64,000 nt of DNA, taken from NCBI GenBank assembly GCA_000004985.1, contig GG738886.1; one strand, written 5' to 3'. Positions 1-59,844 of the stretch are shown piece after piece (position 1 is the stretch's first letter; every line of letters begins with the position of its first letter). Origin of the DNA: Naegleria gruberi. Taxonomy: Eukaryota. A program made the position numbers and the translations under genes. Under the pieces are notes generated by a model, which saw only the letters and a program-made list of their open reading frames with translations, was not told where the DNA came from and made no database searches.

Positions 1-299
1 TTTACATTAATGAGATAATTCATAACAAAACTTACAACTGAAAGTATAAAGATTCAAACAAATAATCATCTGGAAAACTAATAAATATTGGAGAGGTATT
101 TCTTTCAACGTATCTTTCATGTAAAATCAAATATGAAACCACATAAAGTCGTTTGAGATCTATTAAATCAAGGTCAGGTAGTAAGTGAGTTGCTAGTGGA
201 ATAGTATCAGGGCTCAACAAGGAAATTATTTGGTTGCAATTACAACCAATGACCAACTCTAATGCATAGTGATAACATGGTGCTATCGATTTGTCATTA

Positions 300-3200
300 T
301 CATCTAATAAAAATAGAACACTTACTGGAATAATATGCATGGGTTTTGATGATTGTTGAAATAAAATCCACGTCCCTGATTTCGTAACCACTCATCAACT
401 CAGAGTTTCTAGAAATCTTACATACTACTTCAATATTTCCAATTACGACTTCTCCAAATTTTAAATTGACTTCATCTTCATTTATATTTTCCAAAAAGTC
501 TTCACAAAATTCCCACACTATTTCGACATATTTCTCAATATCAGAAGCATGGGATAGTTCTTTACAACTAAAAACTGTTGCTACAATATTATTATTTCCT
601 TGAATCAATAAAAGTTCGTGGATGTTTTGAAGATTTCCTTTCACTAACAGGATCATCTTGACATTATGATTTGCTTCAATTTGTTTAGGAGAAAATGACA
701 CTATCTGAAACAATTTTGACTTCATTTCCTGAATAATAATATCCCAGTTATCTGGTCGGTGTTCTTCTTCTCTTGCAGTGCATCTATGACATAAGTTGCT
801 AAATTCTTGATCAATACCACAATATTCTAACAATTTTCCAAATGAATAAATATCGCACTTATAAGTATATAAACCTCCTTCTGCTACTTGTGGAGATCTG
901 AAAAAGGTTGTACCTCCAGATGAATTGTCTTCTCCAAGACATATTTTACCGAATCCAAAATCTACAAGTGTAACTACATTCGATGATATCATAATATTTT
1001 TTGCTGAGATGTCTCGATGAACAATATTAAAAGCGTGAACCTTTTTAAGAGCATCAGCTATTTGAATGAGTATTTTGATTTTCTGAAAACGGCTTGGGTT
1101 TGTTTGATTCCATTCTGCCAAGTTTTGGTCTAATTCGTCTTGAATGATATAGATTGTGTTGTTTTCGTCTCGTAATATTGTTTCCACTTGGGCAAGCTCT
1201 TTAAGTTTATACTTAATATTGAGAAATCTTTACATGTTGGTGATTACAAAAGAATTAAAATACTTACATTAGTATAAAAACTTCTCTGTAAAACGGATAA
1301 TCTTGCTTAGCCCTGGGTATTACCTTTACAACCTTATTTTGGTTGTTCCAAAATATTCTATAAACGGTGCCATAAGCTCCCGATCCAATCGGGTTTGTTA
1401 GCTCGGGTAATTTATCTTTGTAAAATACCTTATTAGCAAAGAAATAGGTTTCAACATAATTTTTCATCAATTCATCTAAGTCTGAAATGTTGAATGGTAT
1501 TTCATTATTGCCAATATCTGTGGCACCAGAGGCTTTCAGAATATTGAAAGCTACCATTCTCTCTTGATATTCTCGATCAATAATAGACTCTGCCAACGTT
1601 TTCATCTTGCTCAACATGATATCCGGAAATAATCTCACTACAGAGTCGATTTGATGATCAATATCATCTTTTCCTACTTTCTTTTTCCTCTCTCCATTCC
1701 CGAAATGAGGCTGTTTAAGCTGGAAAAGGAGGCTGAAAAATCCTCCAATATTTCTTATTTTAGAAGAAATAGTTGATTCCCAAAATCCAAAATTAGTCAA
1801 TTTGGATCTTTCGATAATATCATTCTTTTGATCTACTGGATTAGGGAGTTCATTTTTGGGATTTGCAAAATCATAATGCAAGAAATCTCCAAGCTTAGTA
1901 AGGAAAAGCAATTGAATAGATTGAATATTAACTAATCTCAGAAGTAAACAATTCACTACTCTTGAAACTACTCTTTCATTGTATTCTCCCACATCCAATA
2001 TATCTTCAAAGTAAAGTTTGTCTTTGATATCAGAAGAAATTATATGACTATTCGCAATCTTTTTCTTAAACTTTTCACTATTAACAACCATAAACTTTTC
2101 AATTTGTTGGAAAAGCTTATTCTTGGAAATATTGATATCCTCAATTGATTTCTCTTCTATGATTGTTGTTATAATATTGTTCAAGACCTCCAATATTCTA
2201 GTGGAGTAATATTGTGGGAAATCTTGTAATTTTTGAAGGACTAATAGAAGAAGGTGTTCTTGAAATTCGAAAAATTCGCAATCTGGTATTTGGTTCCTTT
2301 TCATTTTGGATTCTAGAGCATTCTTTGCTGATATTCTAAATGAAGGAATATCTCCAAAATACTCTATTACTTGTGTTTGATGGTATTTTTTATACCTTTC
2401 AACGTTACTTTTGTCTTGTTCTTTGTCTACCATATTGTAAAGAATAATGTTAGGTTCAATGTTTTTTTCTTTAAGAATGGACAATATATTCTAAGAAAAT
2501 TAATGAAATCTGTTGGAGAATACTTACTCGATCTGGATATTGAATGTTTGTAAAATCAACAACACAAATGACGACATCTGAGTTTTCAACAAATTCCAAA
2601 GTGTTTGAATCTATTGCCTCACAATTCTTTTGATTTATGCCAGCAGTATCACATAGATTAATATCAAGTTGTAATAATTCATATCCTGGAAGCTGAATGC
2701 TGAATATCTTTTGTTCAAATTCGTCATTCAAATCCTCACTGAAATCTGAATCGAAATTAGCATCACTAGAAAAGCTTTGTTCGTCTAGCTCAGTAACTCG
2801 TTCAAGTTGTTGGGATAGACGATAATACTCCACCTTGTTACCATTCTCACAAATAATAACTCCACTAGTTGATGGTAAAACATCAGAGTGTAGAACTAGT
2901 CCTCCAAGAATACTGTTGATAACAGTTGATTTACCTACTGATGAGCCTCCCACAAGTGTAATTTTGAAAGTGGAGTCCAACGGTTTTTTAAATGTCAATA
3001 AATGTTGAATGACATTATTAAAATTATACAACTGATTCGTAATTTCGATCAAGCTTTCTTTAGAGGTTCTCCACTGCGCCATCTCTCCTCTAATTAACTC
3101 ATAATGAACGCTCAATTTGTCCCAAAACTTAGTGACAATAATCTCTCTTAACTTGATATCGGATGCAATGTTCAAAGCCTCTTTGTGTCTTCCTTGCAAT

Positions 3201-3592
3201 GATAAACATACAGCATATAAAGGTTCTAAAATTGATTCATTCCCATTATTAGACATAGACTTAATAGTATTAAGCGCATCTATTCAAGTGTAAAATTAGT
3301 ATCTCAAAAACAACCTACTTTTGCTCCATTCAATTTCATCTGTTAGAAAACCAGGATCCAAGTCTATAAAAGATGCAAGATAACGCTTAATGTTACTGGT
3401 GTCAATTGTATTCACTTGTTCTGAGGGATTCAACTTCAAAAAGTCCAAACATCTAGAACAATAAAATCCAGAGCTTGAGCCAACAACGTGACTGCCCAGT
3501 AAATCACAACATTTACACCAACGGCAACAAGGCGTTAAACGTTCATGGCATAGGCTTACTGCAAAGTTAATAATGTCAAGTGTTGATACCAT
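300..3592 (-). CDS. Multi-exon gene: N-terminal Cys-rich segment, then a mitofusin/dynamin-like P-loop GTPase domain, a helical region and a C-terminal Ser/Thr protein kinase domain. Proposed exons on the minus strand are 3592..3319, 3279..2528, 2490..1268 and 1227..300, about 1059 aa.
   Basis: GTPase motifs: ITLVGGSSVGKSTVINSILGG...LPSTSG (P-loop, close to mitofusin GKSTVINAML..LPSG) and LCDTAGI (DxxG). Kinase motifs: GSGAYGTVY glycine loop, VVKV lysine, HRDISAKN catalytic loop, DFG, and CDIYSFG. Exons are joined in frame by three tiny GT..AG introns at plus-strand 3280..3318 (39 nt), 2491..2527 (37 nt) and 1228..1267 (40 nt). I checked the junctions by hand; the third uses a weak AAG acceptor. 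Confidence 0.6.
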
Positions 3593-4244: not shown

Positions 4245-5392
4245 ATGTTTCTATCATTCAACAAGCCCTCTGCACTTTCGTCTACTTTCGAATCAAACAA
4301 TGCCAGCTCTATTGTTTTCACAATGACTGACTTTGATGATTTAATTTACTCGGCAATTGATCAATCCTTCTCCTTCTTCTTTATGGCAACTTTTATTTTA
4401 CTAATTTTACTAATTGTTGGATTTTCCATAAAAAGCGATTGGAAAACATTAAAAAAAAGTCAAAAAAATATAATTTTAATGATTTTGACATTGTTGACAA
4501 CTCAAATGATTGGACTGTCAGGGAGAACAAGTTATAATTTTATTGACATTTCAATTTTGACAAGATATGAAAATTATTTAACTGAGAATGGATATACAGA
4601 GAATGATCAACTGTATATTGATGTAATTGTGAATGGAAATGACACTTATTTGACAACTGACATGGTGGGAATACCTTATGCAGATGTAGTTGGATTATTT
4701 CTCTCCAAGTCAATTGAGGCATTTTTCATTTTATTTGGATTAGTGATAATTAACATGGTTTTACATTACATTTCACATTTATTCTTTAATTTAATCAAAT
4801 ATTCACAAGGAGTTTTGAAATCGAATAGAACTAGAGTTATTCGAATGATTTTTGACACTGTCATGTTTATTACTTATTTCTTTTACTTTTTATTATTGAC
4901 TGCCATATTTATATTATTACTCATTGAGAATTTGAAGATAATTCATAACATCCAGTTAATTTTCTTTATCATTTCATTTGTTTTATTTGTTTTCCAATTG
5001 CTTTCTCAAACAATATTTTCATTGGTAAGTAATTTATTCCTACTTTCGTATAAAAATTATTGAAATAGATTGTAGCCATGATAGTTCTTTCAATTATTAA
5101 TCAATCAAGAAAGAAATTCAAAGATCAAACAAATTATTCATGGAAACAACCAATTGTGAAAATTGTAATTTTACAAGCAATTATGATATTTTCATGTTTT
5201 ATTCAAATTATTGCGATTGGATTTGGAGTTGTCATTTCTGCTTGGAATAATTCAGCATTGATTTATGACTTTTTAAATAATTTGGGAGTTTTGATATTTT
5301 CTATATTGGTATTGTGTTTGTATCATCCTTCGTTTGACTTTTTTAAGAATGAGAATGTTCGAATGAGGCTTAATTGTCAAAGTTTAGAATAA
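4245..5392 (+). CDS. Multi-pass transmembrane protein of about 368 aa in two exons, with the intron at 5025..5068. Function unknown.
   Basis: Two long hydrophobic ORFs (4245..5063 and 5078..5392) join in frame across a 44-nt GTAAGT...ATAG intron. The sequence is rich in I/L/F stretches typical of TM helices. Confidence 0.5.
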
Positions 5393-11138: not shown

Positions 11139-12277
11139 TTATGGTTTATTCTCTTCAAATATTTGATTTAACATTTGATAAACTTGTTCAGTGTTAAATG
11201 CTGAAATTACAAAATGCTTTACAACTCTGTTGTGCACATCCATTTCCATGTACTTTTTCACAATGAACTCAACAATACTGTCAACATTTGATTCGTCGCC
11301 TCCAAATTCTGGAACGTACTGTGAAAACGAAACTCCCCTCTTTATCCTATCTTCTAAAACATCTTTCTTATTGAAAATCAAATAGAGTGGATGTTCAGAC
11401 ACAAGTTTAGAGTCATACCATTTCTCAAATGAAGATAATCCCTCAACAAATCGATTTGTAATATTGTCTTCATAACACAATTCGTCAAATTCACTTAATG
11501 AAATAACGTAGCCAACTACAAGTTTTTGTTGAGAAAATTCAAAAACTTGTGGAATATGCAACCATTTCTTACGCTCAGTACGTTGTCCTCCTATTTTGTT
11601 TTGTTATTAATTGAGTAAATCAGCTATTAAATACGTACCAGTGTCCATGATTGCTTTTTTAGGATTTTTGATATACTTGAAAGATGGTTGACCAGTTGTT
11701 TTAATGGCAGCATAAAAGAAATCATCAAAATTCATTTCAACATTATCTTTTAACAACCTTTCCACATTCTCTTTCTTTGAATAATATTTGATACTTTCTA
11801 AAAATGGTAATGTTGCTCTATTTTCAAATAAAGCTCTTTGTAATCCTGGATCTTGATGCATTTTCAACACAACTCTTTTCACATCATTCCAAACTCTATC
11901 AGGTGCTAATAGATTCTTGTGAGATTGTCCAATAGTTTCTATCATTTCCAAATAGGCCTCTGAATTTTCCCTTCTTTCGAATTCATCTTTATATTTATCA
12001 ATTTCTTCAAAAACCAAATTTAATAATATTGAATAAACATTCAAAATTGACTTTTCATGAGTGTGAGGCAGTTGAATTCCACTTCTTTTCACTATTGAAG
12101 CTAATTATATTATGCAGACGAAACTAAATGGCAAATGTCAAAAGGAATTAACCTACTTTTTCCTGCACCACCTGTTCCTATCAATGCAAGAGCAGTATCT
12201 GTACCTTCCAATGGATCATATGGAGGTGGAACTGTATTCACTGTTCGAAAGTTAAATAATTTACCAAGTTTTTTCAT
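11139..12277 (-). CDS. Heterotrimeric G-protein alpha subunit, about 345 aa in three exons: 12277..12156, 12100..11639 and 11590..11139.
   Basis: Spliced product motifs: P-loop GTGGAGKTSIVK; helical-domain stretch LFENRATLPF...AAIKTTGQ; switch II DTGGQRTERKKWLHI, formed across the intron at 11591..11638; and NKxD as LIFNKKDVLEDRI. Introns are 55 and 48 nt with GTAGGT/GTACGT donors and TAG acceptors. Confidence 0.75.
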
Positions 12278-14039: not shown

Positions 14040-15103
14040 TGAATGTCTCTTACTTATTACATTAGTTGTAGGTTGTGGTTCTAAAGGTTGTTGTTGTGCT
14101 GATCAATCTTTCGCAGAGTGTCTTGTTCAATACTCTGATTTGACCTACTCTTTTTAGAGAGTGTATGTACAAAGTCCATTTGATGATGTTCTTCTTGATG
14201 ATTAACACAGTCAGCCGAAGTCATCTTATTAATCTTCTTCTTATTACTAGTATTGTTAAGAATAATATTAAAACTTTTTTGTTTTTAAAATTAAATCTTC
14301 TTGTTCAGGTCTTCTACTACAACACAATAAGAAGGCTTGTTTGCCAATGATGATTTTCTTTTTAATGATGAATTAACCGATGATGAGAACGGAGGCTTTT
14401 TTGTTTTTCAATAATTCATATGGAATATCTGAACGCAAAGTTATCGAATCGTCCAGCTTTTCATCGCGCAATAAAAAACCGCTGCGCTATTATAGAGATT
14501 TTTTTGGATAAATACACCTCAATCAAACATGGCGCCAAAATAAAATGTACCATTTCTGTGGAGATGTCAAAGTCAGTATGATGTGTTCATTGAATTTGGT
14601 ATTGTGAAGGTAAAATGGTTGTTTAAGGAATATAAAGAGAAATGCATGAAATTATTTTAAATTTCAATAATGATAAAAACCTTACTTTATTTCTTTGTAT
14701 TGCTTGTCAAGTTTTGTTTTTTGAAATCTGACCTTCACACACAAAGACCTAATTCATTGGAGAATGAAATTGTAAAATGAGTTTTATCATTCAGTAATAA
14801 AATCCTCTAAAATTGTTAAATAGAAATCCAGAACATGAAAGCGGAGAAAGGTGAGTAAGCCAGTGTGAGAGAATTTAACCTGAACCAATTAATTCATGTC
14901 CTAAATGTATTATTATATTCCAGTGTATCTTCAAATCTCTGAATGTAACCTTACATTGGTAATTGCTATCTCTCTTGCCAATCAAAGAGTTGCCTTGATG
15001 GTCAATTTACTTTCATCCAATTTTCACAATTTCAAACATTTTGAAATGGAAAATATGAAATGGAATCAAAAGGAATTGCAATCAAAAAACCAAATTCAAA
15101 AAA

Positions 15104-17805: not shown

Positions 17806-17878
17806 TGCCGACACCAGGGATCGAACCAGGGACCTTAAGATCTTCAGTCTTACGCTCTCCCAACTGAGCTATGTCGGC
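17806..17878 (-). tRNA. tRNA-Phe (anticodon GAA).
   Basis: Reverse complement reads GCCGACATAGCTCAGTTGGGAGAGCGTAAGACTGAAGATCTTAAGGTCCCTGGTTCGATCCCTGGTGTCGGCA. It has a 7-bp acceptor stem, a D-arm AGCTCAGTTGGGAGAGC, an anticodon loop CTGAAGA, a TΨC arm GGTTCGATCC, and 73 nt without encoded CCA. Confidence 0.85.
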
Positions 17879-25267: not shown

Positions 25268-26292
25268 ATGGTCAAGGTCCTCGTTCTTTTCTACTCTACT
25301 TATGGTCACATCTGGCAAATGGCTGGTTCGTATCTAGATTCAATGAATATAATTTATTAATCAATATTTTTCAAATAATTGCTCAACTTTTTTGATGTTA
25401 AAATTATAATAATAATAATTATTAATACAAAAACAACTCAATTTGATATTTTTTAACATTGAAATAATTAGAGGCTATTGCTGAAGGTGCTAGACAAGTT
25501 GAAGGTGCTGAAGTTGTTGTCAAGAGAGTCCCAGAAACTCTCCCAACTGAAGTCTTGGAAAAGATGTACGCTGTTGATGCTCAAAAGGCCTTTGCTCACA
25601 TTCCAGTTGTATGTATTGATATAGTTATAATTACATATTTATTAACTTGAAATCATTCAATTTTTTTTGATTGACCATCTTGTTATTGAACTACTCATTA
25701 ACATTATCAAAATAATATGAAAAATAATAGGCTACTACTGAAGAGCTCCCATCCTATGACGCTATCATCCTCGGTTCACCAACTAGATTCGGTACTATGG
25801 CTGGTCAATTGAAATCCTTCTTGGATGCTACTGGTGGTCTCTGGGCTACTGGTGCTTTGGTTGGTAAGGTTGGTTCCTTCTTTACTTCTAGTGCTACACA
25901 ACACGGAGGAAATGAAACAACCATTATTTCATCTATCCCAGGTTCGTATTTTTATACTATATTTGGTAATAACCATTTTAACTTTATTTGAATTATTTCA
26001 TTTATCAACAGTCTTCCTTCACCACGGAATGGTCTATGCTGGTTTGCCTTACTCTTGTGCCACTCAAATGGGTTTGGACGAAATTAAGGGAGGTTCACCA
26101 TACGGTGCTACTACCATTGGTATGTTTTGAATTATGTTGAGTTTTATTAATATTTATTAATCAATTATTTTACTGAAATAATCTGAAACAGCTGGTGGAA
26201 AGGGTGAAAGATTACCATCTGACCAAGAAAAGGAAATGGCTAGATTCCAAGGAAAGCACGTTGCTACTCTTGCTAAGAAGTTGTCCCAATAA
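25268..26292 (+). CDS. WrbA-type NAD(P)H:quinone oxidoreductase (flavodoxin-like) in five exons: 25268..25325, 25472..25608, 25731..25941, 26012..26119 and 26191..26292.
   Basis: Spliced protein [44 protein letters not shown]...[31 protein letters not shown]...[11 protein letters not shown]...[13 protein letters not shown]...[13 protein letters not shown] is colinear with bacterial and fungal WrbA. All four introns are GT..AG (GTTCGT, GTATGT, GTTCGT, GTATGT). Codon usage looks like a highly expressed gene. Confidence 0.8.
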
Positions 26293-29015: not shown

Positions 29016-29134
29016 GGCTACGGCCATATCACGATGAATGCACCTCATCCCGTCCGATTTGAGAAGTTAAGCATCGTCGAGCCACATCAGTACTGAGGTT
29101 GGAGACAACTTGGGAACCTGTGGTGCTGTAGTCT
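29016..29134 (+). rRNA. 5S ribosomal RNA gene, copy 1, 119 nt.
   Basis: GGCTACGGCCATATCACGATGAATGCACCTCATCCCGTCCGATTTGAGAAGTTAAGCATCGTCGAGCCACATCAGTACTGAGGTTGGAGACAACTTGGGAACCTGTGGTGCTGTAGTCT. It carries canonical 5S helices and a box C-like CCGTCCGAT. A T4 Pol III terminator follows immediately. Confidence 0.9.
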
Positions 29135-30616: not shown

Positions 30617-31075
30617 ATGCAATTATTTGTCAAGACACTCACTGGAAGAACTATCACTTTGGAGGTTGAATCTAATGATTCAATTGAAAACGTGAAAAGA
30701 AAAGTACAAGATAAGGAAGGAATTTCACCAGATCAACAAAGACTCATCTTTGCTGGGAAACAATTGGAAGATGGCAGAACTATTAATGATTACAACATTC
30801 AAAAAGATTCAACTCTTCATTTGGTGTTGAGATTAAGAGGAGGAATGCAACTTTTTGTAAAAACTTTAACTGGAAAGACAATCACTATTGAAATGGAATC
30901 GAATGATACTGTTGAGAATATGAAACAAAAGATATTTGATAAGGAAGGTATTCCTTCAGATCAACAACGATTGATTTATGCCGGTAAGCAATTGGAAGAT
31001 GGAAGAACTATTGGTGATTACAATCTTCAAAAGGATTCAACTGTGCATTTAGTATTGAGATTGAGAGGTGGTTAA
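30617..31075 (+). CDS. Di-ubiquitin: two head-to-tail ubiquitin-fold repeats ending in GG. Both repeats diverge from canonical ubiquitin.
   Basis: [76 protein letters not shown] plus a second repeat. About 11 and 17 substitutions against canonical ubiquitin. K48, K63 and the C-terminal GG are retained. Confidence 0.8.
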
Positions 31076-31300: not shown

Positions 31301-31419
31301 GGCTACGGCCATATCACGATGAATGCACCTCATCCCGTCCGATTTGAGAAGTTAAGCATCGTAGAGCCACATCAGTACTGAGGTTGGAGACAACTTGGGA
31401 ACCTGTGGTGCTGTAGTCT
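31301..31419 (+). rRNA. 5S ribosomal RNA gene, copy 2, 119 nt, with one substitution relative to copy 1.
   Basis: Identical to copy 1 except C>A at GTAGAGCC. About 15 nt upstream and about 30 nt downstream are also conserved between copies. T5 terminator. Confidence 0.9.
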
Positions 31420-36637: not shown

Positions 36638-39600
36638 ATGCCACAAGATAAAAGTGAACTTGACTGTGGTAAAGTACTTACTAATCAGGATAGTGGTGTT
36701 GGGTTTAGCACTATCAATACTAGTCCCCCGCATCAACAGTCGAGCGATTGTATTTCTAACATGAAGGAAAACCTAATTCCGGAGGTGAAGAATAATGATG
36801 AATTATCTGCATCATCTATTACTCTTGCTGTTCCGAACATTGATTGTGGAAGTAATACGACAAAGATGCCAACAACAAGTACTCTCGTTGTGGATGATAT
36901 CATTAAAAATAGGAGGAATATTGATGATAAAAGGTCTCTTGAAAATCGAGGAACGAGAACAGCCAGCCTGTCAATGCCAACAACTAATTATTTATTTCCA
37001 TCATCAAAAAGTAACTTAATTCCAATATTACCAAAAACTAAGGATCAGGAAAAGGAGAAAATGCAGAAAAACAAACTAACTTTTCAAAATTCGAGAAATT
37101 CTCTTTTTCAAAACTCTAACAAAACAACTTACACAAAAGTTGAAATGAACAAACAATCTAACGATAAGAGAGGACAAACGAAAATAGATCACCAACCCAA
37201 AAATCTAGAATTGCCCTCATTAGCATCAATTGTTTTAACACCAAATACTCCTAACTCGGTATCTAATGTCAATATTGAAACAGACGAATCAGAAATTAAC
37301 CCAATACTGGAATCAGTACCATTCTTTATATTTTTAAAAATTGGAATACTCAAGGAAAACTCAGAACCTAAATATTTAGAGGCTTATAGGGCTCTTTCTC
37401 AACAAAATCTATTCTTTATGACCTCTTGGTTTAGGTATTTTGGGATATATTTTGTTTTAGTATTTTTAACAATGTACAAGCTTGTCGGGATGCGAACAAT
37501 CTCTAGCTCTGTACTTTGCAACTTTTGCAGTGGAGGTTTTTAGTAATCTTTATCTGAATTATTTAACATGCTGTAAATCTCCAACTAGGGCAAGGAAGAA
37601 TGTAATTCATTTATGCAGAACAGTTCTGTCAACCTCTTATGGATTCATAATGCAAATGTATTACACTAAGCTATCCATATATATATTGACAATACTCAAA
37701 TTAATAATTTCTTGTCATATTTTTGGAGACCATCTTATCACCTCCTTAATATCTACAGTAATTTTCGTATCTGGTTCGCTTATTCCAATGATGATTTTGG
37801 GGTATCCAATAGAATCTATAGTAAGCAACGGGATAGTAATGACTTCCATAGCCATTATGTGCTTGTTCTTTTCAAAAATATATGCAGAAGAAAAAAGATA
37901 TCATTATAAACAAAGGTTTGCTTACATGCAGGAAAAGTATTTGAGCAATGAGAAAACTCACATGATTGCAAATATTTCACATGAAGCAAGGTATGTATTA
38001 CCAGTATCAGTTCGAATTAATTCAAATTCACATTTTGGAATTGTTTTAATTATTCCTATGTAGAAATCCATTGCATGGTATTATTGGAGCTTCAACAATT
38101 TTGAGACATGATATGGAAAAGAACAGTCATTCAGATAAAAGAAAAAAAAGAGGAAGAAAGAACAGCATTTTACAATCACCTTCTCATTCACCAATGAATG
38201 CAAAGAAAGGATTCTTACATGTTTCAAATGATGATGGACACTATTCGAGTGATTGTGAATCTTCATGTGGAGATTCAACAGCTGAACAACCGTATCTTGA
38301 ATTGGTGAATGATATTTATAATAATGCCAATTTGTTACTTCACATTTTCAGTACTTCACTTCAAATGACAAGTCTCGAAATGGGAAATATCAAATTGAAG
38401 AATGAACCATTCAATTTATTGGACACAATTGAATCAGTAATTTCAGTATTTTATAATATTGCAGCAGACAAGAATGTTTCACTTCACAGTTTTATTAATT
38501 TAAATTCTCTTCCAAACCAAGTGATAGGTGACCACGTTAGAGTTTCTCAAATATTAATGAACTTTGTGTCAAACTCTATCAAATATTCATCTAATGAGCA
38601 AGGAGAGAGTTCAGTAATTCTCAAGTGTGATATTTGTTCAGATGAAGAGCTCAAAAAGTTGAATGTTGAAAAAGAAAAAATAATTGAAATGTTAGACGAT
38701 AAGGAGGACATTGTTTTCGTTAAAATTGATTGTATTGATAATGGAAAAGGAATTGAAAAGGATAATATCAACAAGTTATTTAAAGCATTCCAAACTTTTG
38801 ATTTGAAATCAGCAAGTAACATGGACACAGGTGGAACAGTATTTGATCAATACTATTTGAAATCAATTTCAGGTAATACAAAAGGATCGAATGGAACGAG
38901 TTTACTATTGAGTAACAGAACAGGAGTTGGATTGAATATTAGCAAGCAACTTATTGAGAAGATGAAAGGATCTATTATAGTTAGCAGCGAAATAGGTAAA
39001 GGCACGACAATGTCTGTAATATTTCCTTTAAAGATAGCACCAACTCAATCTGCACAAAATCAAAGACTTGAAGAACTTAGTATAGATTTAGAAGATTTCA
39101 ACGTATTAATTATTGACAATGATGCACTCTTTTTGGATATAATGAAGGACTATGTTGCTCATATTTGTGCTAAAACTACGGTTACCACTGTTATAGACCC
39201 GAAAAGTATTACGGATATTGATGAGTCAAAACCATTGGTAGTAATTTATTCTGAACATCTCCATGCAGAAGTGAAACAAATCCTAAAATTGGTTTCTGTA
39301 GAAAAGATATTGATACCCATTGGATTGAGAGGAAGGACTAGAAAATATGCAACTATGAAGTATATTATCAAACCTGTAAAGGTTGACGATATGATAAGCG
39401 TATTGAACGAAAAACTCGACAAGCAAAAGAAGAAGATTAATTGTCAAAATATTATTACTCCACCTCCAGAGATAAATATCACAACTGATAATGTTCCAAC
39501 TATAGAGGTAGTAATACCAGAACCTGTACCTTCTAAACGAATACTGATAACAGATGATAATTTAATTAACAGAAAAGTGATGGAAAAGATGGTTCGATTG

Positions 39601-39915
39601 TTGGGATTTACTGAAGTTGATTGTGCATCGAATGGATTGGAATGTTTTGAAATGTACAAACAAAAACAATATTCAATCATTTTATTGGACTTGTTGATGC
39701 CAGTCATGTGTGGCAAGCAGAGTGTGAAACATATTCGAGAATTTGAAGAGAGTGAAGGAAGAAAACGAACACCAGTAATTGCCATCACTGCCAACATTTG
39801 GGAATCAGTTGATACTCTCTCACAACTTGGATTTGACTCTGTCATTTACAAACCAATCCTTATTGAAAAATTGAGGGAGGAAGTTGAACGGTTAACGCAA
39901 GAAAGCAACTCATAG
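36638..39915 (+). CDS. Hybrid histidine kinase A. It has a low-complexity N-terminus, a TM region, HisKA, HATPase_c and a C-terminal receiver domain. Exons are 36638..37990 and 38064..39915, with an apparent frameshift near 37478.
   Basis: H-box IANISHEAR|NPLHGIIGAS is split by the intron at 37991..38063. N-box LMNFVSNSIKY. G1 DNGKGI. G2 GTGVGLNISKQL...GKGTT. REC domain ILITDDNLINRK...LLDLLMP...YKP. It is colinear with the downstream paralog except for a frame change between MYK in frame 2 and TSLSGCEQ in frame 0. Confidence 0.65.
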
Positions 39916-40026: not shown

Positions 40027-43000
40027 ATGAATACATTGAAACCCCACAACGTGACTGGAACGAATTGTACCACGAGTTCTATCGGATCTTCATCCACAGT
40101 TGGAGACTTGGGAAATAGCAGTCTACAACAAATAAATCAAAAGTTTATTAGGGAAGATACAAAACCTACTCCTTCATTATCGGAAATCACTAATAATAAC
40201 AGAAACACAAATAATTTATTATCACCTTCTTCAACAACAAGTCCAACAAGTAGCAGAAGCATTCCAAAAACTAAATCTCCAATATCAAGATGGGATTCAG
40301 TACCTATTATCTCTTCGACAACTAACGTTTCAATAACAAATACTGAAGATATCTCTCCAAAGAGAAGTGAAAAACTCTCCCCAATAATTGTCCCAGAAAC
40401 AGCTGGTGTGTTTGAGGTGAGTTCAACACCCAGAAAGTCGTCCAGAATTAATGAACCACCACCCTCAACAAGAAACTCAATCATCCTCACACCAACAAAC
40501 TCCAAATTCATTTCTCAAACAAGCATACCTTTGGATGTGGACGATTCGAATGATAATAGTAATGAACAGATTCTTTCCTCAATTTCACTTTTTCAATTTA
40601 TCCAACTAATCATGCAAAAAAATCCTAACCCTAAATTTAGAGAAGCCCATCGACAAATTTCACAGCAAAATATTTATTCAATTACCAAATGGTTTAGCGT
40701 TTTGACTTTATATTTTTGTTTACTATTTATTGGAATGTACATAACATCAGAAAGTTCAGCATCTCCTATTGTATTTTTTGGCCTTTTTCCATTTGAAGTA
40801 GCCAACAATATGATATGCAATTATATAACTTGCTGTAAAGCTAGATCGGTTTATGCGAAAGCATCCATTCATATCTATAGAGCTGTTATCATTGCAACAC
40901 TTGCATTTATTTGGCAATATTTTTACCACGATATGCCTTTCTACCTGCTTACAATGATAAAACAAATCATTGCTTGTCACGTTTATGGAGAGGAAATTCT
41001 AATATCTTCAACTGCGTCTATAATCATTAGTACAGGAGCAATCTATCCACTCTATGTTCTGAATCAAGGAACAAAGAAGGTTATTGAGGTTTTCTTTTTA
41101 ATGGTGTCTGCTTCTGTGATAAGTTTGTTCTTTGCCTATGTTTATGCAGAAGAGAAGAGAAATCATTACAAACAAAGGTTTGCTTACATGCAGGAAAAGT
41201 ATTTGAGTAATGAGAAAACTCACATGATTGCAAATATTTCACACGAAGCAAGGTATGTAGTACAAGCATCATTTTCAATTAACTCCCATTTTTATCATTC
41301 CTATGTAGAAATCCACTGCATGGTATTATTGGAGCTTCAACAATTTTGAGACATGATATGGAAAAAAACAGTCATCCAGATAAAAGAAAAAAAAGAGGAA
41401 GAAAGAACAGCATTTTACAATCACCTTCTCATTCACCAATGAATGCAAAGAATGGATTCTTACATGTTTCAAATGATGATGGACATTATTCGAGTGATTG
41501 TGAATCTTCATGTGGAGATTCAACAGCTGAACAACCATATCTTGAATTGGTGAATGATATTTATAACAATGCCAATTTGTTACTTCACATTTTCAGTACT
41601 TCACTTCAAATGACAAGTCTTGAAATGGGAAATATCAAATTGAAGAATGAACCATTCAATTTATTGGACACAATTGAATCAGTAATTTCAGTATTTTATA
41701 ATATTGCAGCAGACAAGAATGTTTCACTTCACAGTTTTATTAATTTAAATTCTCTTCCAAACCTAGTATTAGGTGATCATGTAAGGTAAGTGAAATATCA
41801 ATGAGCTTCTAATCACGTCAGTAGAGTTTCTCAAATACTTATGAACTTCATATCCAATTCTATCAAATATTCATCTTCTGAATCTGGAGAGAGCTCAGTA
41901 ATTCTCAAGTGTGATATTTGTTCAGATGAAGAGCTCACATCACTGAACGTAGAGAAGGATAAAATAATAGAAATGCTTGATGATAAGGAGGACATTGTTT
42001 TCGTTAAAATTGATTGTATTGATAATGGAAAAGGAATTGAAAAGGATAATATCGGTAGCTTATTCAAAGCATTCCAAATTTTTGATCTCAAGAATAGTGA
42101 AAATATAACGGATACAAGTGGAACTGTATTTGACCAATACTATTTGAAATCAATTTCAGGTAATACAAAAGGATCGAATGGAACAAGTTACCTATTGAGT
42201 AACAGAACAGGAGTTGGATTGAATATTAGCAAGCAACTTATTGAGAAGATGAAAGGGTGCATTATAGTTAGCAGTGAGGTCGGAAAAGGAACAACCATGT
42301 CAGTGATATTCCCATTCAAAAAGAAAATTGACAATCCAAGTGTTGAACTTGTTATGCAATGTAAAGCATCGCTCAACACTTTCAAAGAGTTTGGAATCTT
42401 TTCATGTCATTATTATTGATAGTGAGACCCACTTTTTGAATCTTTTGGAGGATTATTTACATTTATTGAATCCTAATATAACTATTTTCAAATATGTGAA
42501 CACAGCTAGTATTAAGGAAATTGATTGTTCAAAATCATTGATTGTAATTTACTCTGAAAATCTTCACTATGAAGTCAAACACTTATTCAAGCAGTCAGTG
42601 ATGGAAAAAATTCTAATTCCAATAGGACATCGAGGAAAGATGAGAAGATTCACAAACATGAAATATGTAATCAAACCTCTTAAGGTTGATGAGTTGGTAA
42701 ATGTGTTGAATGAAAAAATTGAGAAACACAAAAAGAGAGTAAGCCATCAAACTACAGATTTTCCACCAGAAATTAAGGTCACAACAGAGAATATTGATTC
42801 TGTGCAGTCTTCTTCAAATAATATGCCTCTAAATGTTGAACCTCCTAGGGTTGAACCAATCACAGATTCCAAAAGAGTTTTAATAACAGATGATAATTTA
42901 ATTAACAGAAAAGTGATGGAAAAGATGGTTCGATTGTTGGGATTTACTGAAGTTGATTGTGCATCGAATGGATTGGAATGTTTTGAAATGTACAAACAAA

Positions 43001-43248
43001 AACAATATTCAATCATTTTATTGGACTTGTTGATGCCAGTCATGTGTGGCAAACAAAGTGTGAAACATATTCGAGAATTTGAAGAGAGTGAAGGAAGAAA
43101 ACGAACACCAGTAATTGCCATCACTGCCAACATTTGGGAATCAGTTGATACTCTCTCACAACTTGGATTTGATTCGGTCATTTACAAACCCATCCTTATT
43201 GAAAAATTGAGGGAGGAAATTGACAGGCTCCCAACCAACACCTCATAG
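40027..43248 (+). CDS. Hybrid histidine kinase B, the tandem paralog of A. Exons are 40027..41252, 41309..41785, 41825..42350 and 42388..43248.
   Basis: Same domain order and motifs as A. Intron 1 (41253..41308, GTATGT..TAG) is shared with A. Intron 2 (41786..41824, 39 nt, GTAAGT..CTAAT..TAG) and intron 3 (42351..42387, 37 nt, GTTATG..CTCAAC..AAG) are absent from A, and both restore colinearity and frame exactly. Confidence 0.75.
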
Positions 43249-43362
43249 TAATAAATTATGAGAAATTCTTAACTCGCTCGCATGTACTATAAACTTTATG
43301 CGCCCTTCTCCACTTTAATAGCATTCTTCACATAACTCCACACTAAACAAATTACAAAAAAA

Positions 43363-43818: not shown

Positions 43819-44201
43819 TTGTGCTGAGAATAATTGTTTGTGAAATTTTGAATTTATATTAAATTTGTTCCTTGATTAATTTAATTGGAAATTATTTTCA
43901 TGTGTGATGATGGAAAATTTAATGGATTCTCTCAATGAGTGGAAGAATTGAGTTTTTAGCATGATGGCAGTTAAGGAATTGAAATTGAACTGTCAATTTT
44001 ATTGTAAGCTACAACAGAATTATTCGAATATGGTCAATATTTTGTAAAGAACATATAATATCCACAGGGGTGCCTTTTCGATTGGATTAGTTCTTGTATG
44101 GAAGTTTGTGATAATCTTTCATCTGATTCCCGCCAAACAAATTTTCAACCGTTACACAAATCTGCCAAGCATCAAATTTTCAAAAACAAAAAAAATACAT
44201 C

Positions 44202-46849: not shown

Positions 46850-48554
46850 TGCTCTCCACTGATCAGGCAAGACAATATCAAGCAGCACAGAAGAATACAA
46901 AGGCTGCCAATAGTAGTAAAGTCAATAACAATATTAGTACTACAACAACAAGCAGTACAAGGAGTAATTCATCAGCTTCACCTTTGGATGCTAGTAATTA
47001 TTTTAACAACACAACGGGAAGAGAAAAGTTGGATATCACAAAGGAGGAAATAGATAAGATTGAAAAATGTATGAAGGACCCTGAGTTTTTAAAGTTGTTT
47101 GAGGAATATGTGAATGAAATTTCCGATCCTAATGCATTGAGGGAAACTGACATGTATATTAAACAATTGGAGAAGGAGGGAACAAGTTTACCCAAGTCAA
47201 TAGTCATTCCGAAGGCTGTAAGTATGAACGTGATGATAGAATTATGTTAATAGATGTAGTGTTTTTGTATTCAATGTGGAACTGAAGATAAGAAGGGGAA
47301 GAACTATATTGTAAATGTTTGTTCGAGTGATAGTGTTGAAATTCACAAGGAAGAGAAATCTAAAAAAGGCGAAAAATGTAAGTTGTGACAATTCAATTAA
47401 GGTCTTATCCAAAACTTTCAGCTGGTACCCAATTTAGTGTTCCATTGGTCGTCGGAAATCCAAAAGTTGAGGAAAAACAAGTCGTTCTCGATGTCATTTT
47501 TAACACAAAAACTTGTGAAAAGGCTGATAAGGATGTTTTGTTTAAGGATTTTATCTGTGGAATGGCTTTGGACTATGTGGAGAAGAAATGTAATGTTAAA
47601 TTGAAAAAGCAATATTATACAATGATGCTTGGAGTTAAAAGTGTTGGAGAGCCATCAGCTCTGACAGTTCAAGCCCCTGGTCAAAAAACTGATAAGAACG
47701 ATCCATTAGCTCCTCAAAGCGTGCTTAAGGATATTCAGGAAAGTAGAGAAAAGGCCAATCAAATCTACTCTACAGAACAAAAGGAACTGAAATTGACCAA
47801 AGAAGACCCAACTCCTAAGAAATCAAACCTCATTCAAGAAGTTAATGATCCAATAACTCCAAAGTATGAAATTGTATACAGGAATAGTTTTGATATGTCA
47901 GAATATACATATTCAACTCCAACAGCTACAAATAGAGCAAAACCAGCTGAGATTGGAATTAGAATATTCCTTCCAATGTTGGATAGTATATCAGGAGTGG
48001 ACCTGGATGTGTCTGAAAACTTTTTGAAATTGGATTGTACACATCCTCAAAAGTATCATTTGGATCTTCATTTGCCGTACAGTGTGTTGAGTGACAAGGT
48101 TTCCGCCAAATTTGAAAAGAAAACCAGAACTTTGAAAGTCAACTTAATTGTCACACCTGACCCAGTGCAGAAAGTTGTCTTTGATGAGATTCCAAAAGAA
48201 CAGGAAGAGGAAGAGAAAGTTACAGTTGTGGAAGAATTAAACAAGGTTGAAGAAGTTGCAGAAACTGTCACAGAAATCCCTCAAACAGAATTTAAACTTT
48301 CTAAAGCGCCATCTCCAAATCAATTCTCTTCGTTCGTTCAAAAGATTCCTCAAGAAATTGATATTGCTGCAACTGAATTGAAACCTGTAAATATCCATGC
48401 CGAACCACCAAAAACCCAAATTGTAAATAGAGTTGAAAGGAATGATACCACAACAAAGAAGAGTGTATCATTTGCTCCACCAGTCAGCGAAGAAGTGAAA
48501 CCAGTCCAACAAGCAAGCGAGTTCAAAAATAAGTATTTATTTGAACTGGACTAG
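46850..48554 (+). CDS. Kintoun/DNAAF2-like PIH1-family protein with a C-terminal CS domain. Three exons at approximately 46850..47218, 47252..47376 and 47422..48554.
   Basis: KDPEFLKLFEEYVNEISDPNALRETDMYIKQLEKEG closely parallels the Kintoun N-terminus DPEFRRMFSQYAEELTDPENRRRYEAEI..LERERG. KGKNYIVNVCSS matches the PIH1 core, and LKLDCTHPQKYHLDLHLPYSVLSDKVSAKFEKKTRTLKVNL resembles a CS domain. Introns have GTAAGT donors. Exact junctions are approximate. Confidence 0.6.
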
Positions 48555-57390: not shown

Positions 57391-59844
57391 ATGCACAAAC
57401 AGATATCTTTATTCTTGTTAGTTTTATTCTTGCTGGTTTCTTCAGCATCATTCAAACATACCCATTTCACAAAGGACATGATTGACTCTCTCAATCAAGA
57501 TCCATCTGTCAAATGGGAAGCTGCAAATTATGACCAATTTGCAGGTAAATCATTTGCTGAATTGAGAAAATTATTAGGTGGTAAGAGAGGTGAAGAAAGC
57601 TCGAGTGAAGAAGCAAGATATAATACCAGAGATGTTAAATCGACTGTTGCCATTCCTGATACTTTTGATTCTAGAACTAAATGGCCACAATGTATTCATG
57701 GTATTAGAAATCAAGGTGTAAGTAATATTCATCCATAGCATGTTGTTTAATATTGTAAAAAAAGCAATGTGGATCATGCTGGGCTTTCGCAAGTAAGTAT
57801 TAAGTTTTCCTCTGTTGTTGCTCATCTTTGACAACAATTATTACAACAAAATATGATGTGAATATTGACATGAATAACATGAAAATAATAGCTACTGGTG
57901 TTTTCTCTGATCGTTTGTGTATTACTACTAACAACGTTTCAAATGTTGTTATCAGTCCTGAAGTAAGTTAATGTAAGCTAACAATAACATAACATTCGTC
58001 CAGTTTCTTATTGAATGCGACAAGACCAGTTTTGCATGTCAAGGCGGTTATGGTTATTATTCATGGAAATTCTTCATGAATACTGGTATCCCATTAGAAT
58101 CCTGTGTTCCATACACTAAAGATTCCCTTGTTTATGGTAACACCACCAACGCTCAATGTAGATCAACTTGTACTGATGGTAGTCCACTTAAATTATACAA
58201 GGCTGCTAGTGCTTATTATATTTACTCTCCAATTACCAATTATCAAACTGAAATTATGACTAATGGACCAGTTGAAGCTGATTTTGATGTGTAAGTTTTC
58301 TAATTTTAGTAATGTGAAATTTTAATTTTTTTTAGATATTCTGATTTTTATTCATATAAATCTGGTATTTATCAAAAGACAGCAGGAAGTACCTATGTTG
58401 GTGGACATGCTGTTAAGGTTCTTGGATGGGCTTCTGATTCTAATGGAACTCCTTATTGGATTGCTCAAAATCAGGTAAGTTTCGAATAGAAATTAACAAT
58501 TAATAGAAATAATTTAAAACACAATAATAGTGGGGAACATCATGGGGTATGGGAGGCTATGTATGTTTTTAATTTGATTTGAAAAATTAATTAACTTTTT
58601 CTAGTTGTAAGTAATTTGTAATTTACTTTTTTGTAAATTTATTATCAACCTTAACAGTTATATTTATAGAGGAAATTCTACTTTGAATTGTAAATTTGAT
58701 AATTACATGATTGCTGGAACTGTCTCACCACCAACATGTTATGGTAAAGCTCAAAGTGATTCTTCAGTTTGTAATGGACATGGTCAATGTGTTGGACCAG
58801 ATACTTGTTCATGCTCAAGTGGATGGGGTGGCACTTATTGTAATATTACCAGTTGTAATGGAATTGTTTTGACTGATTCATCAGTTTGTAGTGGTCATGG
58901 CCAATGTGTTTCTGCTGAAAATTGTGTTTGTAATAGGTAGGTTTTTTCACTTGTTGTGTGATTTTTTTAACACAATTGGTTGAAGTGGTTGGAGTGGAAC
59001 TTATTGTGCTGAAACTACCTGTAATGGTATTTCATCTGCCAATTCATCTGTCTGTAGTGGACATGGTACATGTACTACCAAGGATACTTGTACATGTAAG
59101 ACTGGTTATGGAGATCAATATTGTCAATCATTCATTTGTTATGGATTGACTGGTTCCAATGCTGCCGTTTGTTCTGGACATGGTACATGTTCTGCTTATA
59201 ATACTTGTAAATGTAATACTGGATACTCTGGTTCTCAATGTCAAAACTATACCTGTAATGCCATTGCCCAAAATAATGCCAATGTCTGTTCAGGACATGG
59301 TTCTTGTGTTGATTACAATACTTGTAAATGTTCAGGTGGATACACAGGTACTTATTGCTCACAAGTTGCTTGTAATGGAATTCTTCCAACAGATTCATCT
59401 GTTTGTAGTGGCCGTGGTAAATGTGTTGGTCCAAACAATTGCACATGTACCAACTCAACTCAGTATGGAGGTGAATTCTGTCAAGTTCCAAAATGTGGTG
59501 GAATTTTGGCAACAGATTCTTCAGTTTGTGGTGGAAAGACCAATTATGTTTGCTCTGGTGTAAATACTTGTACATGTAAGACTGGATATACTGGAGCTAA
59601 TTGTAACTCATTCTCATGTTTTGGAATTGATTCCAACTCAACAAGTGTCTGTGCAGGAAGCGGAAAGTGTGTTGCATTGGATACTTGTCAATGCACTGAT
59701 GGAACTTCAGGCAATTGTACTTCCTCAACTAGTACAGATTCCAGCACAAGACAATCACATGCCTCTAATCAATATGGCCAAACCATGTGGATCCAAATTG
59801 TATTGTGTACTGTCTTGTTATGGATTGGAGCTATTGTTTTTTAA
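57391..59844 (+). CDS. Cathepsin-B-like papain-family (C1) cysteine protease. It has a signal peptide, at least six short exons for the protease, about eight tenascin-type EGF-like Cys repeats, a Ser/Thr stalk and a C-terminal hydrophobic GPI-signal/TM tail. One junction, 58561..58657, is unresolved.
   Basis: Signal MHKQISLFLLVLFLLVSSASF. Protease exons: 57391..57717; 57765..57792 encoding QCGSCWAFA; 57892..57962; 58004..58290 encoding GGYGYYSWKFF; 58336..58474 encoding GGHAVKVLGW...YWIAQNQ; 58531..58560 encoding WGTSWGMGGY. Then YIYRGNSTLNCKFDNYMIAG from 58658 onward, repeats of CxGHGxC(x5)CxCxxGYxGxxC, an intron at 58939..58988, and an end at MWIQIVLCTVLLWIGAIVF*. Confidence 0.55.
58690..59720 (+). 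repeat. Coding tandem array of about eight copies of a unit of roughly 96 bp (about 32 aa) of EGF-like modules.
   Basis: Recurrent module T-C-N-G-I-x-x-T-D-S-S-V-C-S-G-H-G-x-C-V-x(5)-C-x-C-x-x-G-[YW]-x-G-x-x-C. Nucleotide-level periodicity is visible, for example repeated gtttgtagtggncatggtnaatgtgtt. Confidence 0.6.

What the first reader, a model, noticed from the sequence alone, without database searches (positions are those of the whole stretch)
1228..3318. A class of tiny spliceosomal introns of 37-40 nt
At least five introns here are only 37-40 nt long. They sit at plus coordinates 3280..3318, 2491..2527, 1228..1267, 41786..41824 and 42351..42387. Each has GT..AG ends and a plausible branch motif, and each removes a segment exactly so that flanking exons stay colinear with homologs. 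I verified the frame by hand in every case. Other introns in the window are 44-145 nt. A discrete ultra-short intron class is a lineage-level genome feature worth noting, and it will defeat gene finders trained with longer minimum intron lengths.
Basis: partly seen in the sequence, partly recalled or inferred. Interest (0 to 1): 0.5.

Follow-up and report, generated by a model that had tools for sequence, protein, structure and literature searches.

The report
Short Naegleria introns, not a separate class
Four of the five 37-40 nt segments are genuine spliceosomal introns of the amoeba Naegleria gruberi, but they are the short end of a continuous run of intron lengths, not a separate class, and the fifth is doubtful.

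Summary
The window is Naegleria gruberi nuclear DNA. All five segments sit at the stated coordinates with GT..AG ends and lengths 39, 37, 40, 39 and 37.

Four are well supported as introns.
- 41786-41824 lies in the same codon and phase as a 59-nt intron in the N. lovaniensis orthologue. The tandem paralogue HK1 lacks exactly these 39 nt.
- 2491-2527 and 1228-1267 match, in phase and position, 50- and 59-nt introns of the only homologue found, in Willaertia magna.
- 3280-3318 is needed to join a zinc-finger exon to the rest of the gene and has consensus signals.

The fifth, 42351-42387, is doubtful. It has an atypical donor (GTTATG) and no branch motif, and the orthologue has no intron there. 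A 1-nt frameshift explains it about as well.

The "discrete class" reading fails. I found 27 candidate introns in the window: 37, 37, 39, 39, 40, 41, 42, 44, 44, 44, 45, 47, 48, 49, 50, 51, 56, 56, 56, 70-146. Sixteen are reproduced exactly by GenBank proteins. There is no gap after 40, and the splice signals are the same.

The gene-finder warning has some support: neither gene carrying introns of 40 nt or less is in the annotated proteome. This is an ordinary feature of low interest.

The parts
3280..3318 (-). 39-nt intron, phase 1, GTAGGT...ATAG, branch-like ACTAAT with its A 16 nt from the 3' end. It joins the B-box-like zinc-finger exon (3319-3592) to exon 2 of gene 1.
   Evidence: ends, in-frame stops; only consensus-donor bridge of 90 nt or less; signals. 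One search shows the Willaertia homologue carrying the zinc-finger and the GTPase/kinase parts on one polypeptide. There is no orthologous intron, so support is indirect.
2491..2527 (-). 37-nt intron, phase 0, GTAAGT...TTAG, branch-like ATTAAT 9 nt from the 3' end. It lies between the G3 and G4 motifs of the GTPase domain of gene 1.
   Evidence: One search gives an ungapped alignment across the junction with conserved NI(L/I)..LKEK immediately after it. Searches show a phase-0 50-nt intron in the Willaertia homologue one alignment column away. Searches show GTPase domain matches that run continuously across the junction.
1228..1267 (-). 40-nt intron, phase 2, GTAAGT...AAAG, branch-like TGTAAT 16 nt from the 3' end by my reading (the scan scored TTTAAT at 27 nt). 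It lies in the N-lobe of the kinase domain of gene 1.
   Evidence: One search places it in the same MAFFT column and phase as the 59-nt intron in codon 794 of the Willaertia homologue. One search shows the Pkinase profile matching 708-883 in one stretch. One search shows a 4-aa insertion relative to Src at the junction.
41786..41824 (+). 39-nt intron, phase 2, GTAAGT...CAGTAG (tandem acceptor), branch-like TCTAAT 12 nt from the 3' end. It lies in the N-box of the HATPase_c domain of histidine kinase HK2.
   Evidence: tandem paralogue HK1 lacks exactly these 39 nt. GDHVR|VSQIL is gapless in three homologues; the N. lovaniensis orthologue has a 59-nt phase-2 intron in the same codon.
42351..42387 (+). 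Doubtful 37-nt segment, GTTATG...AAAG, in the linker between the HATPase_c and receiver-like regions of HK2. It is either an atypical intron or the site of a 1-nt frameshift.
   Evidence: the only candidate without a GTNNGT donor, and no branch motif found; no intron here in N. lovaniensis; a frameshift-corrected read-through aligns as well to HK1 (104 vs 107) and better to N. lovaniensis (83 vs 61); the in-frame alternatives of 25 and 46 nt also have weak donors.
300..3592 (-). Gene 1: zinc finger, then dynamin-like GTPase, then protein kinase (1058 aa as spliced). It may continue through a further 43-nt intron at 283-325 and off the window start.
   Evidence: It is not in the annotated proteome.
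40027..43248 (+). HK2, a hybrid histidine kinase (1029 aa as spliced), in tandem with paralogue HK1 (36638-39912).
41253..41308 (+). 56-nt intron of HK2 (GTATGT...GTAG, phase 2), homologous to the 73-nt intron of HK1 (37991-38063) and to a 59-nt intron in N. lovaniensis.
57963..58003 (+). 41-nt intron of the cathepsin-B-like gene (57391-59844). The other introns of this gene are 47, 99, 45, 56, 44, 51 and 49 nt.
   Evidence: the spliced protein is exactly EFC41310.1; the alignment to PDB 5fpw has no gap at any of the seven junctions within the aligned protease domain (the 49-nt intron lies outside it).
47218..47259 (+). 42-nt intron of the PIH1 gene. A second intron of 44 nt lies at 47378-47421.
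   Evidence: the spliced protein from M20 is exactly EFC41307.1. Pfam PIH1 positions 1-164 of 166 match in one stretch across both junctions.
11591..11638 (-). 48-nt intron of a G-alpha gene. A second intron of 56 nt lies at 12101-12156.
   Evidence: the alignment to PDB 6ne6 has no gap at either junction.
25268..26292 (+). WrbA-type flavoprotein gene with introns of 146, 122, 70 and 72 nt. These form the long end of the window's distribution.
   Evidence: exactly EFC41301.1; gapless alignment to PDB 4la4.

Best explanation
The window is Naegleria gruberi nuclear DNA. Four of the five segments (3280-3318, 2491-2527, 1228-1267, 41786-41824) are ordinary U2-type GT-AG introns. They are the shortest members of one continuous distribution of short introns: 19 of the 27 candidates in this window are 37-56 nt, the median is 49, and a tail reaches 146. 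They are not a separate class.

Likely mechanism (inferred, not shown). These introns are recognised across the intron (intron definition). The near-perfect GUAAGU or GUAGGU donor pairs with U1. A CUAAU/UUAAU-type branch site lies 22-27 nt downstream of the donor and pairs with U2. The 3' splice site is the first AG after the branch, 9-16 nt away, or the second AG in the CAGTAG case. That distance leaves no room for a polypyrimidine tract. Every intron would give a premature stop codon if retained, so unspliced transcripts would be non-productive.

The orthologous introns in N. lovaniensis and Willaertia are 50-59 nt. The N. gruberi copies are therefore shortened versions of ancestral introns, not a new kind.

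The fifth segment (42351-42387) is more likely a 1-nt frameshift in HK2, either real or an assembly error, than an intron.
For: - Organism: 100% identity to an N. gruberi protein on a 358,576-bp contig; exact GenBank matches.
- Intron reality: (exact 39-nt gap against paralogue HK1). (N. lovaniensis 59-nt phase-2 introns in the same codons as HK2's 56- and 39-nt introns; Willaertia introns of 77, 50, 51, 59 and 41 nt). (the 40-nt intron shares column and phase with a Willaertia intron; the 37-nt intron shares phase and is one column away). (25% identity over 1009 aa, E = 5e-57, continuous across junctions 2 and 3).
- Continuum: (27 lengths, shared donor GTNNGT in 26 of 27, TAG/CAG/AAG acceptors).
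- Validation of the other introns: 16 introns of 41-146 nt reproduced exactly by GenBank proteins EFC41310.1, EFC41301.1, EFC41307.1 and EFC41311.1; no gap at any tested junction against solved structures.
- Stop codon on retention.
- Doubt about the fifth.
- Literature: N. fowleri RNA-seq was mapped with a minimum intron length of 30 bp 'based on an assessment of predicted genes' (PMC8296547).
Against: No transcript data were available, so removal from RNA is inferred and not shown. The census comes from a single 64-kb window of 27 introns, and it was found through ORF breaks. Introns with lengths that are multiples of three and no stop codon would therefore be missed, and the stop-on-retention result is partly built into the method. 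Two census members (5025-5068, 44 nt; 14099-14148, 50 nt) have no independent support, and the GenBank model for the latter gene is single-exon. Intron 3280-3318 has no orthologous intron. The published mean annotated intron length for N. gruberi is 203 bp, far above my median. At least one annotated 629-nt 'intron' in this window is a modelling artefact.
Confidence: 0.85

Rival explanations
1. One reading: N. gruberi has a discrete class of ultra-short introns of 37-40 nt, distinct from its other introns, seen as a separate mode in the length histogram.
For: Five candidates fall within a 4-nt range.
Against: The next lengths are 41, 42, 44, 44, 44, 45, 47, 48, 49 and 51, with no gap. The 41-, 42-, 44- and 45-nt introns are in exact GenBank models. 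Donor, branch and acceptor signals do not differ. The orthologous introns in relatives are 50-59 nt, so length at these positions drifts rather than being fixed to a class.
Confidence: 0.07
2. The segments are not introns. Gene 1 and HK2 would be decaying pseudogenes whose frame breaks happen to be flanked by GT and AG, which would also explain their absence from the annotated proteome.
For: Neither gene is in the annotated proteome. The HK1/HK2 pair does contain frame disruptions with no intron signals (HK1 near 37500; HK2 near 42360).
Against: For four segments the break coincides with a consensus GTAAGT or GTAGGT donor, a hexamer that is depleted in the window. Three coincide in codon or position and phase with introns annotated in other genera. 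One is an exact 39-nt indel bounded by GT..AG relative to a paralogue. Apart from these breaks the ORFs are long and uninterrupted.
Confidence: 0.03
3. The fifth segment, 42351-42387, is a genuine 37-nt intron with an unusual GUUAUG donor.
For: It has GT..AG ends, and its length of 1 mod 3 restores the frame. The product PSVEL|SLESFHV aligns slightly better to HK1 (107 vs 104). GTT donors do exist in this genome: GTTCGT occurs twice in the WrbA gene.
Against: It lacks G5 and T6, which the other 26 introns all have, and no branch motif was found. N. lovaniensis has no intron at this place. The 3' half of the segment, read in the downstream frame (HRSTLSK), resembles the orthologue's LETLKSK, and the read-through scores 83 vs 61.
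Confidence: 0.35

Closest known systems
Species-specific 'minimal intron' peak of short, intron-defined U2-type introns (for example about 50 nt in C. elegans and fission yeast, about 60 nt in Drosophila)
   Same: GT-AG ends, a strong donor, a branch site close to the 3' end, and a narrow main mode at a species-typical length with a thin longer tail. Ranges for several species are summarised in PMC4675715. The intron-definition model is from my own knowledge.
   Different: In this window the lower bound is 37 nt and the median is 49, somewhat shorter than in those model organisms. No genome-wide histogram for Naegleria could be found in the searchable literature.
Ultra-short introns of ciliates (Paramecium and Nyctotherus, about 25 nt)
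   Same: Very short introns that give a premature stop when retained (PMC5014332 abstract; the Paramecium nonsense-mediated-decay argument is from my own knowledge).
   Different: In those genomes nearly all introns fall in one very tight peak near 25 nt. Here the lengths spread from 37 to 146 nt, and nothing below 37 was found.
Annotated introns of Naegleria and Willaertia genomes
   Same: The same donor consensus (GTAAGT) and overlapping sizes: 41-146 nt in N. gruberi GenBank models, 59 nt in N. lovaniensis and 41-77 nt in Willaertia. Three of the five positions are shared with those genomes.
   Different: The four accepted introns are 1-4 nt shorter than the shortest annotated one I could verify (41 nt), and their two host genes are missing from the 2010 annotation.
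Validated sub-40-nt GT-AG introns in animals (human MST1L 30 nt, Tribolium nAChRb1 35 nt, human AQP12A 37 nt)
   Same: They show that canonical splicing can remove introns of 30-40 nt (PMC4675715).
   Different: Those are rare outliers in genomes with long introns, and in human they are G-rich. Here the short introns are AT-rich (62-75% A+T) and are the norm.

Membership tests
U2-type (GT-AG) spliceosomal intron | GT at the 5' end and AG at the 3' end | tested here: met
   All five segments.
U2-type (GT-AG) spliceosomal intron | Extended donor matching the consensus of other introns in the same genome (GTNNGT, mostly GTAAGT/GTATGT/GTAGGT) | tested here: met
   Met for four of the five. 42351-42387 (GTTATG) is the only one of 27 that fails.
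U2-type (GT-AG) spliceosomal intron | Branch-site-like YTNAY motif upstream of the 3' splice site | tested here: met
   Four of the five have ATTAAT, ACTAAT, TCTAAT or TGTAAT with the A 9-16 nt from the 3' end. For the 40-nt intron the scan scored TTTAAT at 27 nt, and TGTAAT at 16 nt is my own reading. None was found in 42351-42387. The motif is short and the sequence is AT-rich, so this is weak evidence on its own.
U2-type (GT-AG) spliceosomal intron | Removal restores a reading frame colinear with homologous proteins | tested here: met
   Met for 41786-41824, 2491-2527 and 1228-1267. Inconclusive for 3280-3318. Not supported for 42351-42387.
U2-type (GT-AG) spliceosomal intron | Intron position and phase shared with orthologues or homologues | tested here: met
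   41786-41824 matches an N. lovaniensis 59-nt phase-2 intron in the same codon. 1228-1267 matches a Willaertia 59-nt phase-2 intron in the same column. 2491-2527 matches a Willaertia 50-nt phase-0 intron one column away. Not met for 3280-3318 or 42351-42387.
U2-type (GT-AG) spliceosomal intron | The segment is absent from mature mRNA | not testable with these tools
   No N. gruberi transcript data can be reached. Look-ups of N. gruberi proteins and ORFs in the contig collection failed.
Discrete ultra-short intron class (separate mode in the length distribution) | A gap or trough separating the class from the other introns | tested here: not met
   Sorted lengths are 37, 37, 39, 39, 40, 41, 42, 44, 44, 44, 45, 47, 48, 49, 50, 51, 56... 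The step after 40 is 1 nt.
Discrete ultra-short intron class (separate mode in the length distribution) | Splice signals distinct from those of longer introns | tested here: not met
   The same donors, acceptors and branch motifs occur below and above 40 nt.
Discrete ultra-short intron class (separate mode in the length distribution) | A genome-wide mode near 38 nt | not testable with these tools
   Only this 64-kb window of N. gruberi DNA is available. No published histogram was found.

The most novel reading that the evidence does not exclude
N. gruberi has a hard lower limit for splicing at about 37 nt, and introns pile up against it. The 2010 gene models would then systematically miss or mangle genes whose introns are 40 nt or shorter, so part of the reference proteome is missing. 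Gene 1 (a zinc-finger/GTPase/kinase protein with a Willaertia homologue) and HK2 would be examples. A stronger form is that the introns of 40 nt or less, whose branch-to-AG distance is only 9-16 nt, depend on a 3' splice-site recognition route that works without a polypyrimidine tract.
Probability: 0.2. Interest if true: 0.35.

Novelty: new member of a known kind. Interest (0 to 1): 0.15.

Why it matters
The main value is practical. Mapping and gene prediction in Naegleria should allow introns down to about 35 nt, a choice already made for N. fowleri (a 30 bp minimum, PMC8296547). At least two multi-domain signalling genes in this window appear to be missing from the 2010 N. gruberi protein set. 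The published mean intron length of 203 bp is probably inflated by artefactual long introns, such as the 629-nt one in the HK1 model. Biologically, the result places N. gruberi among organisms with short, intron-defined introns and shows that conserved intron positions have shrunk from about 50-59 nt in relatives to 37-40 nt. This is unsurprising and opens no long-standing question.

Tried and rejected
- A home-made exon-chaining gene finder with introns up to 400 nt fused neighbouring genes into one giant model. It became usable only with a maximum intron of 160 nt and a donor threshold. Every model it gave was then checked by hand.
- Its first choices for HK2's last frame switch were a 34-nt intron at 42389-42422 and a 124-nt intron at 42299-42422. 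Both were rejected because they delete conserved residues (HVIIID, MSVIFPF).
- Its model for the cathepsin gene, with an 81-nt and a 109-nt intron around a 5-nt exon, was rejected in favour of 56 + 44 + 51 nt with a 2-nt exon. That version matches GenBank and PDB.
- The alternative G-alpha acceptor at 12092 (65 nt) was rejected because it destroys the P-loop GAGKT.
- A 76-nt intron in HK1 (37460-37535) was rejected because it would delete a conserved transmembrane segment.
- Retrieval of the N. gruberi locus or an independent assembly failed.
- Searches for a published Naegleria intron-length histogram found only the mean and the intron count.
- The 36-nt variant of intron 4 (first AG of CAGTAG) was considered. 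It would add one residue that is absent from all homologues.
Full report
**Source of the window.** The window has about 33% G+C. An ORF at 48749-50770(-) is 100% identical to an NCBI 'predicted protein [Naegleria gruberi]' on a 358,576-bp contig, 81% identical to N. fowleri and 59% to Willaertia magna. Several of my spliced models later proved identical to GenBank N. gruberi proteins. The window is therefore N. gruberi nuclear DNA.

**The observation.** They have GT..AG ends and lengths of 39, 37, 40, 39 and 37 nt.
- Removing the three minus-strand segments joins four open segments into one 1058-aa ORF. Pfam finds a dynamin/MMR_HSR1-type GTPase at 197-361 and a protein kinase at 708-883, each as a single stretch running across a junction.
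- Removing 41253-41308, 41786-41824 and 42351-42387 gives a 1029-aa hybrid histidine kinase, HK2.

**Intron 41786-41824 (39 nt).** This is the best supported.
- A tandem paralogue, HK1, has an uninterrupted ORF at 38050-39912. Its DNA, otherwise about 90% identical locally, lacks exactly these 39 nt.
- The spliced product reads GDHVR|VSQILMNF, with no gap against HK1 or two N. lovaniensis proteins.
- I fetched the N. lovaniensis locus and solved its exon boundaries so that they reproduce the annotated protein exactly. It has a 59-nt phase-2 intron in the same codon, and another 59-nt phase-2 intron in the codon where HK2 has its 56-nt intron.
- The position is therefore ancestral, and HK1 has lost the intron precisely.

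**Gene 1 introns.** Gene 1 had no close relative in the word-indexed search. A full HMMER scan of 1.84 billion representative proteins with exon 3 found a single hit, KAL9655766.1 of Willaertia magna.
- That protein shares the whole architecture: 25% identity over 1009 residues, E = 5e-57, from the N-terminal C..C...GSH...YC..C zinc-finger motif to the kinase.
- Its locus has introns of 77, 50, 51, 59 and 41 nt.
- In a MAFFT alignment, the 59-nt phase-2 intron falls in the same column as gene 1's 40-nt phase-2 intron (1228-1267). The 50-nt phase-0 intron falls one column from gene 1's 37-nt phase-0 intron (2491-2527), in a stretch where a one-residue shift is within alignment ambiguity.
- The sequence immediately after the 37-nt junction (NILSILKEKNIEP vs NIITVLKEKGIMP) is among the best conserved in the protein.
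- The 39-nt intron (3280-3318) has no Willaertia counterpart, and the local alignment is poor. It is still required, because the zinc-finger exon and the rest of the protein are on one polypeptide in Willaertia while stop codons separate them here. It is the only bridge of 90 nt or less with a consensus donor.

**The fifth segment (42351-42387).** This one is different.
- Its donor is GTTATG. The other 26 introns I list all have G at position 5 and T at position 6. No YTNAY motif is present.
- It lies in a linker whose length varies among homologues. N. lovaniensis has no intron there.
- If the segment is read through with a single-base frame correction near 42360, the product aligns as well to HK1 (104 vs 107) and better to N. 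lovaniensis (83 vs 61) than the spliced product does.
- The neighbouring paralogue HK1 also carries a frame disruption without intron signals. The GenBank model avoids it with a 629-nt 'intron' that skips the transmembrane region.
- I put the probability that this segment is a true intron at about one third.

**Is there a discrete class?** I built models for every multi-exon gene I could recognise in the window and tested them independently.
- The cathepsin-B-like gene has introns of 47, 99, 41, 45, 56, 44, 51 and 49 nt. Its spliced protein is exactly EFC41310.1, and its alignment to PDB 5fpw has no gap at any of the seven junctions inside the protease domain.
- The WrbA gene (146, 122, 70 and 72 nt) is exactly EFC41301.1 and aligns without gaps to PDB 4la4.
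- The PIH1 gene (42 and 44 nt) is exactly EFC41307.1, and a dioxygenase-like gene (74 and 70 nt) is exactly EFC41311.1.
- A G-alpha gene (56 and 48 nt) has no gap at either junction against PDB 6ne6.
- With the five claimed segments and two unsupported candidates (44 and 50 nt), the sorted lengths are 37, 37, 39, 39, 40, 41, 42, 44, 44, 44, 45, 47, 48, 49, 50, 51, 56, 56, 56, 70, 70, 72, 73, 74, 99, 122 and 146, with a median of 49.
- There is no gap after 40, and donors, acceptors and branch motifs are the same on both sides.
- The 37-40 nt introns are therefore the lower edge of one distribution.

**Chance.** GTAAGT occurs 24 times on the two strands, against about 44 expected from base composition. 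Thirteen of these occurrences are donors of listed introns. On the plus strand 11 of 13 are donors. A consensus donor landing on an ORF break by chance is therefore unlikely.

**Retention.** All 26 introns tested would give a premature stop codon if retained. All eight whose length is a multiple of three contain an in-frame stop. I found introns through ORF breaks, so this result is partly built into the method.

**Mechanism (inferred).** Recognition is across the intron. A strong GUAAGU/GUAGGU donor and a branch motif 22-27 nt downstream define it. The first AG 9-16 nt after the branch serves as acceptor, or the second AG in the CAGTAG case at 41819-41824. No space remains for a polypyrimidine tract.

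**What is known.**
- N. gruberi is reported to have 1.7 exons per gene and a mean intron length of 203 bp (PMC8296547).
- The same paper mapped N. fowleri RNA-seq with a 30-bp minimum intron 'based on an assessment of predicted genes', so very short Naegleria introns are already recognised in practice.
- Introns of 30-40 nt have been validated in animals (PMC4675715). Ciliates have introns of about 25 nt (PMC5014332 abstract).
- The finding is thus ordinary in kind.

**The gene-finder warning.** Its one practically useful element is that both genes holding introns of 40 nt or less are absent from the annotated proteome, while genes with introns of 41 nt or more are annotated exactly. With only two genes, and other possible reasons for their absence, this is a lead and not a result.

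**Verdict.** The interpretation as a discrete class is not supported. Novelty: new members of a known kind. Interest is low.

Noticed in passing
window 58561-58657 (+), exon at 58605-58606: The cathepsin-B-like gene needs a 2-nt exon (TT) between a 44-nt intron (GTATGT...CTAG) and a 51-nt intron (GTAAGT...ACAG) to stay in frame. The resulting residue (F in GGYFYIYRG) makes the alignment to procathepsin B gapless, and the model equals GenBank EFC41310.1. No single GT-AG intron keeps the frame. It could be a genuine micro-exon, or a recursive-splice-like site. RNA evidence is needed.
   Followed up: partly
window 37436-38064 (+), frame break near 37490-37510: HK1 has a frame disruption relative to HK2 (16 nt against 9 nt between conserved codons) with no usable intron signals. 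The GenBank model (P0120) bridges it with a 629-nt 'intron' that drops the whole transmembrane region. HK1 is either a decaying paralogue or carries an assembly error. Such models would inflate the published mean intron length.
   Followed up: partly
window 38520-38540 (+) compared with 41786-41824: HK1 has precisely lost the intron that HK2 and the N. lovaniensis orthologue share. This is an exact intron loss in one copy of a tandem pair. The C-terminal receiver domains of the pair are identical over more than 100 aa, which suggests gene conversion.
   Followed up: partly
window 300-3592 (-) and 40027-43248 (+): Neither gene 1 nor HK2 appears among annotated N. gruberi proteins. Gene 1 also has no detectable relative in N. 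fowleri or N. lovaniensis, only in Willaertia magna (a single hit among 1.84 billion representative proteins).
   Followed up: partly
window 283-325 (-) and 35 (-): Gene 1 may continue beyond its apparent stop codon. A GTAAGT at 325 with an acceptor at 283 (43 nt) joins in frame to an ORF at 36-282, which weakly resembles kinase subdomains VIII-IX. A further GTAAGT at 35 points to another intron that runs off the start of the window.
   Followed up: partly
window 41819-41824 (+): The 39-nt intron ends in a tandem CAGTAG acceptor. Using the first AG would give a 36-nt intron and one extra residue (Ser) that is absent from all homologues.
   Followed up: partly
window 29016-29134 and 31301-31419 (+); 30617-31075 (+); 17806-17878 (-): Two dispersed 5S rRNA genes flank a polyubiquitin gene, which is identical to several N. 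gruberi GenBank entries. A tRNA gene lies between two minus-strand ORFs.
   Followed up: no
window 25326-25471 and 25942-26011 (+): Two WrbA introns use the donor GTTCGT (T at +3, C at +4), so the genome tolerates non-purine +3 donors provided G5 and T6 are kept.
   Followed up: no
L001 (ENA ERZ929261, PRJEB11402), corresponding to about window 43068-49109: A 6-kb contig from a data set labelled as a metagenome encodes a protein identical to the window's SRPBCC gene. Two other proteins called on it fall in the same >=90%-identity clusters as the window's RGS and PIH1 proteins. N. gruberi-like DNA is therefore present in that sample. The contig ends inside the HK1/HK2 repeat.
   Followed up: no
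whole window, both strands: GTAAGT is under-represented (24 observed, about 44 expected from base composition), and more than half of its occurrences are intron donors. This would fit selection against stray donor sites in a compact genome.
   Followed up: partly
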